A stretch of 32,000 nt of DNA from a virus. The position numbers were made by a program, and so were the translations under genes. The notes beneath the pieces are model-generated. The model worked only from the letters and a program-made list of their open reading frames with translations. It did no database searches and was not told the DNA's origin. The DNA is taken from positions 117,276 through 149,275 of the IMG/VR virus record IMGVR_UViG_3300033407_000001, one strand, 5' to 3'. Positions 12,572 through 14,461 of the stretch are shown here, in pieces (within the stretch, counting starts at the first letter, position 1; each line of letters begins with the position of its first letter).

Positions 12572-14461
12572 TTATGCCCAGGTTGGCTTCTGTAGCACTT
12601 CAGTCTTGAGGATACGGTCCACAAGGCTGACCCGCTTTGGAGCAGCTCGACCAGGAGTTGCCTGGCCGACCGGTGTTGCAGCAACGAGGTTGCGGATCGT
12701 GCGAGGAATTGCGTACGGATCGCTGAAGGTATCTTCCTCGATCATGAAGCACGGAATTCCAAGCGCGATAGCAGTGTTGCGAACTGCAGTGGTTTCGTAC
12801 CCCTGCCGGAATCGCCATCCTGCCGAACCGCCATCTGCCACAGTCTTGACGAAGCCGAAAGCCATTGGCTTCAGGCCGGATGCCAAGATGGCCTGCTCAA
12901 ACGTCCCCTGCTCTTCCTCGTCTCCGACAAAGAGGAAGAGAACGTCAGCCCCATCCTTTGGCTTGATACCGCTCAGAGCGCGAATACCGGCCGCGTGAGA
13001 GGTTCCACCGCCAGCCTGAATCCCACGGAAGGCGTTGGTTACGCCAGCCGCAGAAGCATGCTTAATCTCAACAGGACGACCCTGTGTGTTGAACGTGGCA
13101 ACGTGAAGCTGGTCAAGCTTGAAGCCCTGAAGGAACTTCGAGATGTGGCTCTTTGCTTGCTCGATAGCTCCCTGCATGGATGCCGAGATGTCGATGAAGA
13201 CGTAGACCTCGATATCCCTGGTGACCTCTTCGACAGCCTTTTGCATAGCTGAGTCAGCGGCCTCCTGCAGCTTCTCCTTAATCTCGCCGGACTTCACGTT
13301 GCGGGCAATGTTGGCCGCTCGCATGTCATCCGCTGCCTTGATGGCCTTCTCCCATCGCTCTCGCACCTCCTGGACCTGTAGTAGACCCAGATCTTCAAGG
13401 GTAGGAGTCAGGATAACCAAATCCTTGTCCGATAGAGCCTTGGCTTCGATGGTTGCAGATACGATAGCCCGAGTGACACCGACTTCTCGTGGGATGAGTC
13501 CAACGATACGCTTCCAGTTGGGCTTCTCCGAGACGATCTTTTCACAGATCTGAGTCTCATTGAGACCCTCCCAGCTCTCCGCAACCTTGACCGCAGCACC
13601 AATCGCCAGAGACCGACGACCATCGTCGGCTTGCTTCTGCTTCCAGCGAAGAGTCTCGAAGAAACCAGGAGTGATTGGCTTGTAGCCGACCCGTCTGGCG
13701 AGTTCCATGACCGTAGTCCTGAAGCCAGCCTTGACGAGCCCATCAAGCATCTTGGGGTTCTCCTCGCGGTAGCGGAGCCACTTCTCGACAACCCTTGGCC
13801 AACGACCAAGGAACGGACGTCGAGTTGACCGACCAAATCCAAGCTCCCGATTGATCTTGGCAACGCCCTCCAGACTAAGAAGGTCATGAATCCGGAGCAG
13901 AAGCTTCGGGTTTAGGTCCATCTTCTCCTTGCGGATAAGCATCATAGCCTCGCCGACGTTGCGGAAGTCATCGTCGCTGAAGAGCTTCTCTCCGCCTTCG
14001 ATAACAGGATCACCCTTGCGGGACTGGACGAGCATGAAGGCAGCCAGGACAACCTTGAGATCGCGGTGATCTTCCCCGAAGGCAAAAGATGCCCAGCGGG
14101 CCGCGAACTCGTTGTCTAGCTTCCAGACTTCTGCAACCTGTCCGTAAAGCCAAGTAGCAACCTCCGGAAAGAGACCAGCTGGCCGGTAGTTCCCGACGTA
14201 GGTTCCGTTCTGAACCTTGCCGTCATCGAGCATGTTGCCAAGCTTCACCCTGGTGGATTTGCTGCCCTGCTTGACGAGCTTGTAGACGACTTTGTTGCCG
14301 TCCTCAACCTTGTGAGTGACTGGGTCCCACTTTACACCAATATTGGTGCGTCCATCCATGGTGATAATACCTGGGCGGTTGTGGACCATATGGTCGCTGT
14401 GGGAAAGAATGGCCTGAATGATGTGTTCGGCAGGCCCGAGTGTGTTTGCATCGGTAGTCAT
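12572..14461 (-). CDS. Ro60/Rsr-like protein: TROVE-like N-terminal region plus C-terminal vWA domain (629 aa)
   Basis: The vWA MIDAS motif is FIDISASM. Upstream segments (..LGFGRSTRRPFLGRW..VKAGFRTTVMELARRVGYKP..) resemble TROVE repeats. AGGAGG SD lies before the ATG at 14461. Confidence 0.65.
   Translation of the reverse strand: MTTDANTLGPAEHIIQAILSHSDHMVHNRPGIITMDGRTNIGVKWDPVTHKVEDGNKVVYKLVKQGSKSTRVKLGNMLDDGKVQNGTYVGNYRPAGLFPEVATWLYGQVAEVWKLDNEFAARWASFAFGEDHRDLKVVLAAFMLVQSRKGDPVIEGGEKLFSDDDFRNVGEAMMLIRKEKMDLNPKLLLRIHDLLSLEGVAKINRELGFGRSTRRPFLGRWPRVVEKWLRYREENPKMLDGLVKAGFRTTVMELARRVGYKPITPGFFETLRWKQKQADDGRRSLAIGAAVKVAESWEGLNETQICEKIVSEKPNWKRIVGLIPREVGVTRAIVSATIEAKALSDKDLVILTPTLEDLGLLQVQEVRERWEKAIKAADDMRAANIARNVKSGEIKEKLQEAADSAMQKAVEEVTRDIEVYVFIDISASMQGAIEQAKSHISKFLQGFKLDQLHVATFNTQGRPVEIKHASAAGVTNAFRGIQAGGGTSHAAGIRALSGIKPKDGADVLFLFVGDEEEQGTFEQAILASGLKPMAFGFVKTVADGGSAGWRFRQGYETTAVRNTAIALGIPCFMIEEDTFSDPYAIPRTIRNLVAATPVGQATPGRAAPKRVSLVDRILKTEVLQKPTWA

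What the first reader, a model, noticed from the sequence alone, without database searches (positions are those of the whole stretch)
12572..14461. Ro60/Rsr-like TROVE+vWA protein encoded 3 kb upstream of the ends-paired tRNA-like RNAs
**Seen.** The 629-aa ORF has a C-terminal vWA domain with the MIDAS motif DISAS. Its long helical N-terminal region contains segments that resemble TROVE repeats (GFGRSTRRPFLGRW.., VKAGFRTTVMELARRVGYKP). It is preceded by tRNA-Ser(UGA), a terminator and its own TTGACAAT motif.

**Established.**
- Ro60/Rsr is a TROVE plus vWA protein.
- Bacterial and phage Rsr genes are usually accompanied by one or more Y RNAs whose effector domain mimics tRNA.
- Rsr loci often sit with RNA repair or quality-control genes.

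**Inference.** The scaffolded and permuted tRNA-like RNAs at 8700-9681 are good candidates for its RNA partners. The surrounding genes (RF1-like, Pth2-like and about 47 tRNAs) suggest an RNA and translation quality-control island.
Basis: partly seen in the sequence, partly recalled or inferred. Interest (0 to 1): 0.7.

Follow-up and report, generated by a model that had tools for sequence, protein, structure and literature searches.

The report
Divergent Ro60-like protein with tRNA-mimic RNAs
This huge-phage gene most likely encodes a very divergent relative of the RNA-binding protein Ro60, and it travels everywhere with tandem tRNA-mimicking RNAs and, unexpectedly, with a small ubiquitin-like protein and the two enzymes that would activate and trim it.

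Summary
The ORF is real: 629 aa on the minus strand, with its own ribosome-binding site. More than 1,500 relatives exist, mostly on 200-660 kb phage contigs.

**Domains**
- The C-terminal vWA domain with a complete MIDAS motif is confirmed.
- A TROVE domain is not detected by Pfam in any of the 66 family members scanned.
- Profile-profile comparison with a deep phage Ro60 alignment gives 93% probability over the full length.
- With the vWA domain removed, the helical part still aligns in the same register (P about 0.001) and beats 40 of 40 shuffled controls.
- Foldseek ranks Ro60 structures first for the whole model, but finds no TROVE match for the helical domain alone.

**RNA**
- The RNAs at 8710-9640 are tandem modules of YrlA type: T arm, closed acceptor hairpin, then D arm.
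- They also carry an anticodon-like arm and a strongly covarying 9-12 bp closing stem.
- A covariance model built from them finds the same module next to this gene family in three divergent branches.
- The same model also hits the known YrlA positions beside canonical phage Ro60 genes.

**Neighbours**
- The conserved neighbours are not RF1 or Pth2.
- They form a fixed cassette: Ro60-like, a 311-aa unknown protein, JAB, an 89-aa ubiquitin-like protein ending in Gly, then E1-like ThiF.

**Verdict:** a new variant of the Ro60/Y RNA theme.

The parts
12572..14461 (-). Gene for the 629-aa Ro60-like protein, first gene of the cassette. Residues 20-95 form a beta-rich N-terminal domain (14177-14404). 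Residues 96-415 are the helical TROVE-like region (13217-14176). Residues 416-600 are the vWA domain with MIDAS residues D424/S426/S428/T487/D514.
   Evidence: ORF and translation. VWA_2 match. AF2 secondary structure. hhalign to TROVE. Foldseek.
14471..14505 (-). Promoter-like TTGACAAT (14498-14505) and ribosome-binding site AGGAGG (14471-14476), 9 nt before the ATG.
   Evidence: Sequence. The motif occurs 11 times against 1.2 expected.
14542..14574 (-). Terminator-like GC hairpin followed by a T run. It closes the upstream unit.
   Evidence: Read from the sequence.
11633..12568 (-). p311, a 311-aa protein of unknown family. Its start overlaps the stop region of the Ro60-like gene. It is always the second gene of the cassette.
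   Evidence: Synteny holds in 51 of 51 loci with room and in 68 of 80 genome or MAG (metagenome-assembled genome) loci. No hit in Pfam, NCBIfam, PHROGs, PADLOC or PDB.
10676..11047 (-). JAB/JAMM-type peptidase, 123 aa.
   Evidence: Pfam Prok-JAB E 1.4e-6. PADLOC JAB. Conserved order.
10360..10629 (-). p89, a candidate ubiquitin-like protein. Its C-terminus is conserved as ...RPKTPFG plus 0-2 residues.
   Evidence: C-termini in 50 loci. Alignment A10.
9785..10360 (-). E1-like ThiF-family adenylyltransferase, 191 aa. Last protein gene of the cassette.
   Evidence: Pfam ThiF E 3.7e-19. PADLOC E1-E2 (Cap2-like) E 2.6e-12.
9750..9757 (-). TTGACAAT promoter-like motif in front of the RNA array.
9052..9205 (-). 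RNA module M4. It has a 12-bp closing stem, an internal loop with ACUCGG, a second helix (helix 2), CUUACACGC, a T arm, a closed 7-8 bp acceptor hairpin, a D arm and an anticodon-like arm.
   Evidence: RNAfold. R1 score 113.9 bits. Rfam YrlA 17.4 bits over model positions 30-81.
8863..9012 (-). RNA module M5, same architecture, with a 10-bp closing stem.
8710..8850 (-). RNA module M6, same architecture. Its anticodon-like loop AUGAUAA is conserved as (C/A)UGAUAA in the orthologous modules of L003 and L004.
   Evidence: Rfam YrlA 22 bits over model positions 30-81.
9249..9381 (-). RNA module M3. It has the same closing stem and leader, but the tRNA-like insert is in normal order. ARAGORN calls it tRNA-Leu(taa). 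The 'anticodon' differs among orthologues (UAA, UGU, CGA, UGA) and there is no long variable arm.
9385..9640 (-). Degenerate modules M1 and M2. They keep the leader CUACA(A/C)GCA plus a T arm. R1 scores are 34.7 and 29.9 bits.
8675..8700 (-). GC-rich hairpin that closes the RNA array.
   Evidence: Sequence. Rfam ctRNA-like hairpin match.

Best explanation
**What it is.** The ORF encodes a very divergent member of the Ro60/Rsr superfamily. It has a TROVE-like alpha-helical domain followed by a MIDAS-containing vWA domain, plus an extra N-terminal beta domain that canonical Ro60 lacks.

**Context.** It is the first gene of a fixed cassette: Ro60-like, p311, JAB peptidase, the 89-aa ubiquitin-like protein p89 ending in Gly, then E1-like ThiF. 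The cassette travels with tandem Y-RNA-like RNAs.

**The RNAs.** Each RNA is a circularly permuted tRNA mimic: T arm, closed acceptor hairpin, D arm and anticodon-like arm. Its 5' and 3' ends pair into a 9-12 bp stem with a conserved internal loop, whose 3' side is invariably ACUCGG.

**Proposed mechanism (inferred, not shown).**
1. The protein binds the closing stem and internal loop, as Ro60 binds the Y RNA stem.
2. The tRNA-shaped domain is displayed as bait or tether for a tRNA-recognising host factor, such as PNPase or another RNase, an anticodon nuclease, or a modification enzyme.
3. This protects or regulates the phage's large tRNA set and RNA turnover during infection.
4. The Ubl/E1/JAB trio modifies or regulates a component of this particle, or supplies activated sulfur for RNA thiolation.

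**Shown versus inferred.** Shown here: the domain content, the remote similarity to Ro60, the RNA structure with covariation, and the genomic coupling. Inferred: RNA binding and everything downstream of it.
For: **Protein**
- vWA domain with a complete MIDAS motif.
- Full-length hhalign of the family against a deep alignment of about 109 sequences, built from alignment A3 plus Ro60 ORFs from the phage loci fetched: probability 93%, E 3e-7. Query residues 190-530 match Bxz1 gp220 residues 115-506.
- The helical part alone gives P 5e-4 to 1.2e-3 over 150-180 columns in the same register. A reversed-profile control gives P 0.5-0.7.
- The helical-part score of 35.6 exceeds all 40 block-shuffled controls, whose maximum is 30.3.
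- Aligned motifs: GRWPRVVEKWLRY with GLRKAVxxWY, and VKAGFRTTVMELARRVGYKP with RQREGWTHRDLLRLAHP.
- The sister family matches TROVE at 86-87% probability over about 409 columns.
- Foldseek of the full model puts eight Ro60/TROVE entries on top, ahead of all vWA-only hits.

**RNA**
- The T arm, closed acceptor and D arm match Rfam YrlA positions 30-81.
- On alignment A7, 93% of cells are paired, 17 of 22 pairs show compensatory changes, and 0 of 500 shuffles reach this.
- Closing stems are 9-12 bp and complementary (one mismatch in two cases) in 18 modules, despite unrelated sequences.
- Model R1 also hits the regions 100-900 nt upstream of canonical phage Ro60 genes, where Rfam finds sub-threshold YrlA.

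**Coupling**
- A strong module lies 87-1946 nt after ThiF in 29 of 44 eligible huge-phage loci.
- Modules lie directly upstream or downstream of the gene in the branch at about 40% identity.
- Modules also lie next to the gene in the sister family at about 25% identity.

**Precedent**
- Phage Ro60 binds adjacent Yrl RNAs and host PNPase (PMC12135203).
- YrlA resembles a circularly permuted tRNA (bioRxiv 10.1101/312249).
Against: - No Pfam TROVE (PF05731) hit in the protein or in 65 relatives.
- phmmer against PDB finds nothing. The family profile reaches Ro60 chains only through the vWA region.
- The helical domain modelled alone (pLDDT 83) finds no TROVE structure, only weak ARM/HEAT-type designed repeats with E above 0.05.
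- Whole-model TM-scores to Ro60 are only 0.2-0.38. That is about what the vWA domain alone would give, so a Ro60-like ring is not demonstrated.
- The RNA modules score 22 and 17 bits on Rfam YrlA, against a gathering score of 69.
- Most modules lack the YrlA 5' motif GNCGAAN0-1G.
- The permutation point is in the variable-arm position, not in the anticodon stem as in YrlA.
- In huge phages the RNAs abut ThiF and not the Ro60-like gene, so another cassette protein could be the RNA binder.
- Canonical Ro60 is not known to work with a Ubl/E1/JAB system.
Confidence: 0.6

Rival explanations
1. The vWA protein belongs to a ubiquitin-like conjugation machine with p311, JAB, p89 and ThiF. It would act as a Ubl receptor, adaptor or substrate, in the way the Rpn10 vWA domain binds ubiquitin conjugates. 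It would not bind RNA. The neighbouring tRNA-like RNAs would be an independent feature of the tRNA island or of the operon's regulation.
For: - The gene order vWA, p311, JAB, p89, ThiF is invariant in 49-51 loci. It is also kept in compact operons in Myxococcota genomes.
- p89 ends in a conserved Gly followed by short variable tails.
- ThiF matches Cap2-type E1 and JAB matches Cap3-type JAB.
- Rpn10 vWA domains are among the Foldseek hits.
- In huge phages the RNAs abut ThiF.
Against: - The Rpn10 hits rank below all eight Ro60/TROVE hits and cover only the vWA domain.
- The helical region aligns with TROVE in register.
- In the branch at about 40% identity and in the sister family, the RNA modules sit directly beside the vWA gene itself.
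- No E2 was recognised in the cassette.
Confidence: 0.2
2. The RNA modules are true circularly permuted pre-tRNA genes. They would be cut at the closing stem, ligated into a circle and opened at the acceptor loop to give working tRNAs. The vWA/helical protein and its partners would be the processing or assembly scaffold.
For: - The modules contain every tRNA element, including a 7-bp acceptor and an anticodon-like arm with a 7-nt loop.
- The loop of M6 is conserved as (C/A)UGAUAA, which reads as Ile GAU, across three genomes.
- M. smegmatis YrlA with a 7-bp acceptor is cut by RNase P and receives CCA (bioRxiv 10.1101/312249).
Against: - Most anticodon-like loops are not conserved or lack U33. 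Module M3 shows UAA, UGU, CGA and UGA in orthologues.
- The phage already encodes a normal tRNA-Ile(GAU).
- No splicing endonuclease or RtcB-type ligase was seen in the cassette.
- The closing stem shows no bulge-helix-bulge motif.
Confidence: 0.1
3. The protein is a MoxR-type vWA co-chaperone, like CoxE, NorD or ViaA. It would be used in virion or enzyme-complex assembly and would be unrelated to Ro60.
For: - VWA_CoxE (PF05762) hits in 22 of 38 family members.
- NorD and CoxE-type proteins also have a helical N-terminal part followed by a C-terminal vWA domain.
- NorD appears among the weak PDB sequence hits.
Against: - No AAA+ MoxR partner appears in any of the cassettes examined.
- NorD is in the sequence-search copy of the PDB (entries 9qh6 and 9qhd), and the fold library covers releases to April 2026. 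No NorD chain appears among the 50 Foldseek matches listed.
- The tight linkage with tRNA-mimic RNAs is left unexplained.
Confidence: 0.05

Closest known systems
Ro60/Rsr with YrlA-type Y RNAs in bacteria and phages (mycobacteriophage Bxz1 gp220; Thermus phage phiLo Ro60 with Yrl1/Yrl2, PDB 9kop and 9l5y)
   Same: - Helical domain followed by a MIDAS vWA domain, in the same order. The sister family has the same size, about 525 aa.
- Remote profile similarity in a consistent register.
- One to several RNAs are encoded beside the gene on the same strand.
- Each RNA has T arm, closed acceptor hairpin and D arm in that order, a YUAY-type element (CUUAC) before the T arm, and paired 5'/3' ends.
   Different: - No Pfam TROVE match, and about 12-15% identity to the solved Ro60 structures in the Foldseek alignments.
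- An extra 95-residue N-terminal beta domain.
- The RNAs keep a full anticodon-like arm and are opened at the variable-arm position, not in the anticodon stem.
- The conserved 3' loop ACUCGG replaces the 5' GNCGAA motif.
- The gene is locked into a cassette with p311, JAB, a ubiquitin-like protein and an E1-like enzyme. I found no report of this for Ro60.
Bacterial ubiquitin-like conjugation modules (type II CBASS Cap2/Cap3; Bil system; ThiS/MoaD- or TtuB/TtuC-type sulfur carriers)
   Same: - An E1-like ThiF domain that matches Cap2-type models, and a JAB peptidase.
- A small protein with a conserved C-terminal Gly followed by short removable tails.
   Different: - No E2 domain was recognised.
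- The C-terminus is FG, not GG.
- The trio is coupled to a Ro60-like protein and tRNA-mimic RNAs.
- The cassette is carried by huge phages as well as by Myxococcota chromosomes.
Circularly permuted tRNA genes of red and green algae and one archaeon
   Same: A closed acceptor stem with the 5' and 3' ends paired elsewhere in the cloverleaf (bioRxiv 10.1101/312249, discussion).
   Different: - No bulge-helix-bulge motif and no splicing endonuclease.
- The anticodons are not conserved.
- The setting is bacterial and viral.

Membership tests
Ro60/Rsr (TROVE + vWA) | TROVE domain detectable with the curated Pfam model PF05731 | tested here: not met
   No hit in the protein (E up to 1). No hit in 10 distant relatives. 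No hit in 38 + 28 members scanned at E up to 10.
Ro60/Rsr (TROVE + vWA) | Profile-level homology of the helical region to TROVE, independent of the vWA domain | tested here: inconclusive
   hhalign with the vWA domain removed gives P 5e-4 to 1.2e-3 and probability 19-30%, over 150-180 columns, in the same register as the full-length match. The score exceeds 40 of 40 block-shuffled controls. Full length gives probability 93%.
Ro60/Rsr (TROVE + vWA) | C-terminal vWA domain with a MIDAS motif | tested here: met
   VWA_2 E 2.4e-6. D424/S426/S428 are invariant, and T487 and D514 nearly so. They align to the MIDAS residues of Bxz1 gp220. Weak vWA_Ro60 PF25045 hits in 2 sister-family members.
Ro60/Rsr (TROVE + vWA) | Ring (toroid) of HEAT-like repeats closed by the vWA domain | tested here: inconclusive
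   Whole model: the top 8 PDB hits are Ro60/TROVE, with E 7e-7 to 4.5e-5, but TM-scores of 0.19-0.38. Helical domain alone: no TROVE hit, only weak ARM/HEAT repeats.
Ro60/Rsr (TROVE + vWA) | A Y RNA gene within about 4 kb of the protein gene | tested here: met
   YrlA-type modules lie 2.9-3.9 kb downstream in the window. They are directly adjacent in two other branches.
Ro60/Rsr (TROVE + vWA) | Binds Y RNA and misfolded RNA; tethers PNPase | not testable with these tools
   Needs EMSA, RIP or a structure.
YrlA (Rfam RF02553) | Score at or above the Rfam gathering threshold of 69 bits | tested here: not met
   Scores are 22, 17.4 and 14.9 bits. Control: the RNAs beside 14 canonical phage Ro60 genes also reach only 26-42 bits.
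YrlA (Rfam RF02553) | T arm, closed acceptor-like hairpin and D arm in that order, with 5' and 3' ends paired | tested here: met
   Alignment to model positions 30-81. Covariation on A7. Closing stems are 9-12 bp and complementary (one mismatch in two cases) in 18 modules. R1 cross-detects canonical sites.
YrlA (Rfam RF02553) | 5' motif GNCGAAN0-1G (putative Rsr site) and YUAY before the V/T region (PMC4201824) | tested here: inconclusive
   YUAY is present as C-UUAC or CUAC in all modules. GNCGAA is absent from most. Only some have (U/C)CCGA or GACGAA in the 5' strand. The invariant element is instead ACUCGG on the 3' strand.
YrlA (Rfam RF02553) | The anticodon stem is formed by the RNA's own 5' and 3' strands | tested here: not met
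   The modules carry a separate anticodon-like hairpin. The closing helices emerge at the variable-arm position.
MoxR-associated vWA co-chaperones (CoxE/NorD/ViaA) | An adjacent MoxR-type AAA+ ATPase gene | tested here: not met
   No AAA+ gene appears in the cassette in the window or in the loci examined.
Prokaryotic ubiquitin-like conjugation systems | E1-like adenylating enzyme, JAB peptidase and a small protein with a C-terminal Gly | tested here: met
   ThiF. JAB. p89 ends in ...RPKTPFG plus 0-2 residues. The beta-grasp fold of p89 was not tested.
Prokaryotic ubiquitin-like conjugation systems | An E2-like conjugating enzyme | tested here: inconclusive
   None was recognised. p311 has no detectable family, and its fold was not modelled.

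The most novel reading that the evidence does not exclude
The cassette is a previously undescribed six-part system. It is present in huge phages and on Myxococcota chromosomes. In it, a Ro60-like/Y-RNA-like particle is mechanistically coupled to a ubiquitin-like protein pathway.

Three forms of the coupling are possible:
- The Ubl is conjugated to the Ro60-like protein or to p311 to switch the particle on or off.
- The Ubl is conjugated to captured host factors.
- The Ubl acts as a thiocarboxylate sulfur carrier that modifies the tRNA-mimic RNAs or the phage's tRNAs.

A bolder version is that the modules are the first permuted tRNA genes of the bacterial and viral world.
Probability: 0.2. Interest if true: 0.85.

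Novelty: new variant of a known kind. Interest (0 to 1): 0.66.

Why it matters
- Ro60/Y RNA particles are conserved from bacteria to humans, yet their bacterial and phage roles are barely understood.
- This large, unannotated family has more than 1,500 proteins. The sources that name them call them 'hypothetical' or 'vWA protein'. If it is a Ro60 relative, the superfamily extends well beyond what Pfam detects.
- The family shows that huge phages with large tRNA sets almost always carry such a particle.
- It gives a new Y-RNA design: a complete permuted tRNA opened at the variable arm, often in tandem arrays.
- The invariant linkage with an E1/JAB/ubiquitin-like trio is unexpected. It offers a concrete, testable handle on what these particles do.
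- The presence of the same operon on Myxococcota chromosomes suggests a likely host range. It also provides culturable organisms (Archangium, Vitiosangium) in which the system can be studied genetically.

Tried and rejected
**Searches that gave nothing for TROVE**
- Pfam, NCBIfam, PHROGs and PADLOC on the protein gave only vWA hits.
- phmmer against PDB gave nothing.
- BLASTP against Bxz1 gp220 gave nothing significant.

**Bridging attempts**
- I searched with a distant member, P0244, hoping to reach annotated TROVE proteins. It returned only another unannotated sister family.
- A shallow TROVE alignment gave weak results: 37% probability over the full length, and P 0.03-0.19 for the helical part. 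Results improved only with a deeper alignment built from 80 IMG/VR phage Ro60 loci.

**Structure**
- Modelling the helical domain alone, to obtain a clean TM-score, did not recover TROVE.

**RNA detection**
- A strict regex detector for T arm plus closed acceptor was too insensitive. A motif filter on the covariance-model hits was too strict. Both were replaced by score thresholds.
- Rfam at gathering threshold found no YrlA even beside canonical phage Ro60 genes, so that threshold does not discriminate here.

**Other**
- The search for related loci with the broad alignment A2 failed for lack of conserved stretches.
- p311 and p89 profiles against PDB gave nothing.
- I rejected the idea that the modules are tandem-tRNA artefacts. 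The acceptor strands pair with each other across a 4-12 nt loop, and no anticodon arm precedes the T arm.
- I rejected RF1 and Pth2 as conserved partners.
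Full report
**1. The observation**

The ORF at 12572-14461 on the minus strand encodes 629 aa. AGGAGG lies 9 nt before the ATG. An identical protein is recorded on a 286.8 kb contig.

Upstream of the gene are three features, all read:
- a TTGACAAT motif at 14498-14505;
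- a hairpin with a T run at about 14542-14574;
- a tRNA-like element at 14620-14706.

TTGACAAT occurs 11 times in the window against 1.2 expected. Ten of the 11 copies are on the coding strand, so it is a genuine promoter-like signal of this phage.

The tRNA-like element is not called by ARAGORN. On Rfam it reaches 42 bits on tRNA-Sec, below the gathering score of 47. The label 'tRNA-Ser(UGA)' is therefore not secured. ARAGORN finds 37 tRNAs in the window, not about 47.

**2. The protein family**

The family is large and unannotated.
- The word-indexed search found 1,560 proteins. The listed ones are more than 63% identical and many sit on contigs of 200-660 kb.
- The exhaustive search found 287 representatives at 50% clustering.
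- The only GenBank phage match is Virus Rctr197k, at 59% identity. There the region is annotated only as 'similar to conserved hypothetical protein' and lies inside a tRNA array.
- A sister family of about 525 aa is about 25-30% identical and lacks the first 95 residues or so.

**3. Is it Ro60-like?**

The vWA domain is certain. Pfam VWA_2 matches at E 2.4e-6. D424, S426 and S428 are invariant, and T487 and D514 nearly so.

The curated TROVE model never matches. This holds for the protein, for 10 distant relatives and for 66 members scanned one by one. phmmer against PDB finds nothing. The family profile reaches Ro60 chains only through the vWA region.

Fold evidence is mixed.
- The AF2 model has pLDDT 77 and pTM 0.45. 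It shows a beta-rich N-terminal domain at residues 31-93, a helical region at 99-414 and a vWA domain at 417-595.
- Its eight best PDB matches are all TROVE or Ro60 entries: 9kop, 9nfa, 1yvp, 9l5y, 1yvr, 9nep and 2i91. E-values are 7e-7 to 4.5e-5, and the alignments cover 480-585 columns. They rank ahead of every vWA-only hit.
- However, the TM-scores are only 0.19-0.38.
- The helical domain modelled alone has pLDDT 83. It finds only weak ARM/HEAT-type designed repeats and no TROVE structure.
- The best named BFVD hits are giant-virus DUF2828 and vWA proteins.

I then built a real TROVE reference.
1. I took Bxz1 gp220, annotated 'Ro-like RNA binding protein'.
2. I added its relatives, which carry PF05731 and PF25045.
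3. I added 80 phage Ro60 loci from IMG/VR, reaching down to 41% identity.

The hhalign results were as follows.

| Comparison | Result |
|---|---|
| Family vs shallow TROVE alignment, full length | 37% probability |
| Sister family vs shallow TROVE alignment | 86% probability over 409 columns |
| Family vs deep TROVE alignment, full length | 93% probability, E 3e-7; residues 190-530 match gp220 115-506 |
| Helical part only (vWA removed) vs TROVE N-terminal part | P 5e-4 to 1.2e-3, 150-180 columns, same register |
| Reversed-profile control | P 0.5-0.7 |
| 40 block-shuffled controls | maximum score 30.3, against the real score of 35.6 |

These are GLRKAVxxWY and RQREGWTHRDLLRLAHP.

My reading is that remote homology to Ro60 is probable. 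It has not been shown to the standard of family membership.

**4. The RNAs**

The region 8710-9640 on the minus strand holds six tandem units. In the three best units (M4, M5 and M6) the order of elements is:
1. a 9-12 bp closing-stem strand;
2. a short A/C-rich loop;
3. a second helix (helix 2);
4. the leader CUUACA(A/C)GC;
5. a T arm;
6. a 7-bp acceptor closed by a 4-12 nt loop;
7. a D arm;
8. an anticodon-like arm;
9. an A-rich trailer;
10. the return strand of helix 2;
11. the invariant ACUCGG, whose GG opens the return strand of the closing stem.

Rfam YrlA aligns to the T arm, closed acceptor and D arm, which are model positions 30-81, at 22 and 17 bits.

This matches the published description of YrlA: a V region beginning with YUAY, then T arm, acceptor stem and D arm (PMC4201824). 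YrlA has also been described as resembling circularly permuted tRNAs with closed acceptor stems (bioRxiv 10.1101/312249).

Orthologous modules occur in four related genomes. The structure is well supported.
- On the 12-sequence alignment A7, 93% of cells pair.
- 17 of 22 pairs show compensatory changes, and none of 500 shuffles reaches this.
- Slid registers fall to 33-53% paired.
- Closing stems are complementary in 18 modules (one mismatch in two of them) although their sequences are unrelated.

Two differences from YrlA stand out. The modules keep an anticodon-like hairpin and are opened at the variable-arm position. The GNCGAA motif on the 5' strand is mostly absent.

Module M3 carries a tRNA-like insert in normal order, and ARAGORN calls it tRNA-Leu(taa). 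Its 'anticodon' is UAA, UGU, CGA or UGA in orthologues, so it is not a decoding tRNA.

**5. Coupling of protein and RNA**

I built covariance model R1 from A7 and searched four sets of loci.

- **Huge-phage loci (56).** R1 gives many matches of 46-114 bits. A strong module starts 87-1946 nt after the end of ThiF in 29 of 44 loci that have enough sequence.
- **Sister-family loci (about 25% identity).** One module of 80.7 bits lies 760 nt upstream of the gene in L137. Three modules lie in the 1.1 kb gap just after the gene in L138.
- **Genome and MAG (metagenome-assembled genome) loci at about 40% identity.** Many are from Myxococcota, and one is from a Vitiosangium isolate. Here 1-5 tandem modules lie within about 1.1 kb upstream, or just downstream, of the gene on the same strand.
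- **Canonical phage Ro60 loci.** R1 hits lie almost exclusively 100-900 nt upstream of the Ro60 start on the same strand; the best is 35 bits, E 2e-5. Rfam finds sub-threshold YrlA of 26-42 bits in the same places, and none reaches the gathering score.

So the window's modules fail the Rfam threshold just as accepted phage YrlAs do. The two RNA sets are mutually recognisable.

**6. The real gene context**

tblastn shows one fixed order on one strand: vWA, p311, JAB, p89, ThiF. It holds in 49-51 of the 51 huge-phage loci with room. It also holds, in compact form, in genome and MAG loci, including isolates of Archangium and Vitiosangium.

tblastn found RF1 in only 3 and Pth2 in only 2 of the 57 loci searched.

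The neighbours are as follows.
- **p89** ends in a conserved ...RPKTPFG followed by 0-2 variable residues, occasionally more. This is the pattern of a ubiquitin-like protein whose C-terminal Gly is exposed by a JAB peptidase.
- **ThiF** matches Cap2-type E1 models.
- **JAB** matches Cap3-type JAB models.
- **p311** has no detectable family.
- No MoxR ATPase and no E2 were seen.

I found no paper in the searchable library that describes a TROVE or Ro60 protein linked to a Ubl/E1/JAB trio. TROVE proteins in a subset of jumbo phages are already known (PMC7824862). So is a phage Ro60 that binds Yrl RNAs and host PNPase (PMC12135203).

**7. Interpretation**

The best-supported reading is a divergent Ro60-superfamily protein that forms a particle with the adjacent YrlA-like permuted-tRNA mimics. 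The closing stem and its conserved internal loop are the likely protein site. The tRNA-shaped part is the likely bait or tether for a host tRNA-recognising factor.

The Ubl/E1/JAB trio and p311 are obligatory partners of unknown role. Regulation by conjugation and sulfur transfer for RNA thiolation are the two options I consider most plausible. Both are inference.

The main rival is that the vWA protein serves the Ubl pathway and does not bind RNA. Placement of the RNAs directly beside the vWA gene in two divergent branches argues against this, but it is not excluded.

**8. Verdict**

The finding is real and more interesting than a plain 'phage Rsr'. It is a new variant of a known kind. The protein-RNA pairing looks right. 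TROVE membership is probable but unproven. The 'translation quality-control island' is not the conserved context.

Noticed in passing
window 14620-14706 (-): A tRNA-like element lies just upstream of the gene. It has a good acceptor stem and T arm and a long variable region, but an aberrant anticodon arm (3-bp stem and 9-nt loop, by eye). ARAGORN does not call it. Rfam tRNA-Sec gives 42 bits, below the threshold of 47.
   Followed up: partly
window 16260-16337 (-): ARAGORN reports a tRNA with a four-base anticodon (ctcg) and undetermined identity. Rfam tRNA gives 47 bits. Its low end overlaps the start of the 229-aa ORF at 15597-16286.
   Followed up: no
window 9279-9354 (-): The ARAGORN/Rfam 'tRNA-Leu(taa)' (61 bits) is module M3 of the RNA array. 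It sits inside the same closing stem and leader as the permuted modules. Its anticodon is not conserved in orthologues, and it lacks the long variable arm of a bacterial tRNA-Leu.
   Followed up: yes
window 9785-11047 (-) and related loci: JAB peptidase, the 89-aa protein ending in RPKTPFG(+0-2 residues) and an E1-like ThiF form an apparent ubiquitin-like activation trio. It is invariably linked to the Ro60-like gene. A few p89 homologues carry longer C-terminal tails with Cys-rich motifs (L104, L105).
   Followed up: partly
window, 11 sites (e.g. 4158, 6556, 9750, 10672, 14498, 14598, 18477, 21373, 25611, 28039): TTGACAAT is about nine-fold over-represented and almost always on the coding strand. 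It is often just upstream of tRNAs, RNA modules or genes, so it is probably the phage's own promoter element.
   Followed up: partly
window 7520-8098 (-): A 192-aa protein carries only the end of the PCRF domain plus the RF-1 (GGQ) domain. It is a truncated class-I release-factor-like protein. tblastn found it only in the closest relatives (L003, L004) and, at 49% identity on the opposite strand, in L122.
   Followed up: partly
window 11044-11742 (-) and 14785-15324 (-): HNH endonuclease genes are inserted inside and next to the cassette. Their presence and position vary between related genomes, as expected of mobile homing-type genes.
   Followed up: no
L139-L218 (genome contigs), e.g. L200 Archangium gephyra NZ_CP102578.1 2,926,387-2,932,102; L204 Vitiosangium sp.: The five-gene cassette also lies on chromosomes of cultured Myxococcota, at about 40% identity. 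The closest relatives (up to 75%) are on MAG (metagenome-assembled genome) contigs binned as Kofleriaceae or Myxococcota. This hints that Myxococcota are the hosts of these huge phages. I did not check whether the chromosomal copies lie in prophages.
   Followed up: partly
L037, L039, L059 and other canonical phage Ro60 loci, positions about 600-1200: Several canonical phage Ro60 genes are preceded by three or four tandem YrlA-like elements. Tandem arrays of Y-like RNAs are therefore common in phages and not special to this window.
   Followed up: partly
L001 21644-21820; L138 9952-10316: Some modules carry an extra hairpin between the CUUACAAGC leader and the T arm, in the position of the YrlA 'V' stem-loop. 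Others carry a long insertion in the acceptor loop. In the sister family the 3' loop motif is ACUUGA instead of ACUCGG. From memory, this resembles the CACUUGAC of vertebrate Y RNA 3' strands. I did not test that resemblance.
   Followed up: no
window 15359-15442 and 15440-15515 (-): Two tRNA-Leu genes (caa and aag) are called with a 3-nt overlap, so the array is extremely tightly packed here.
   Followed up: no
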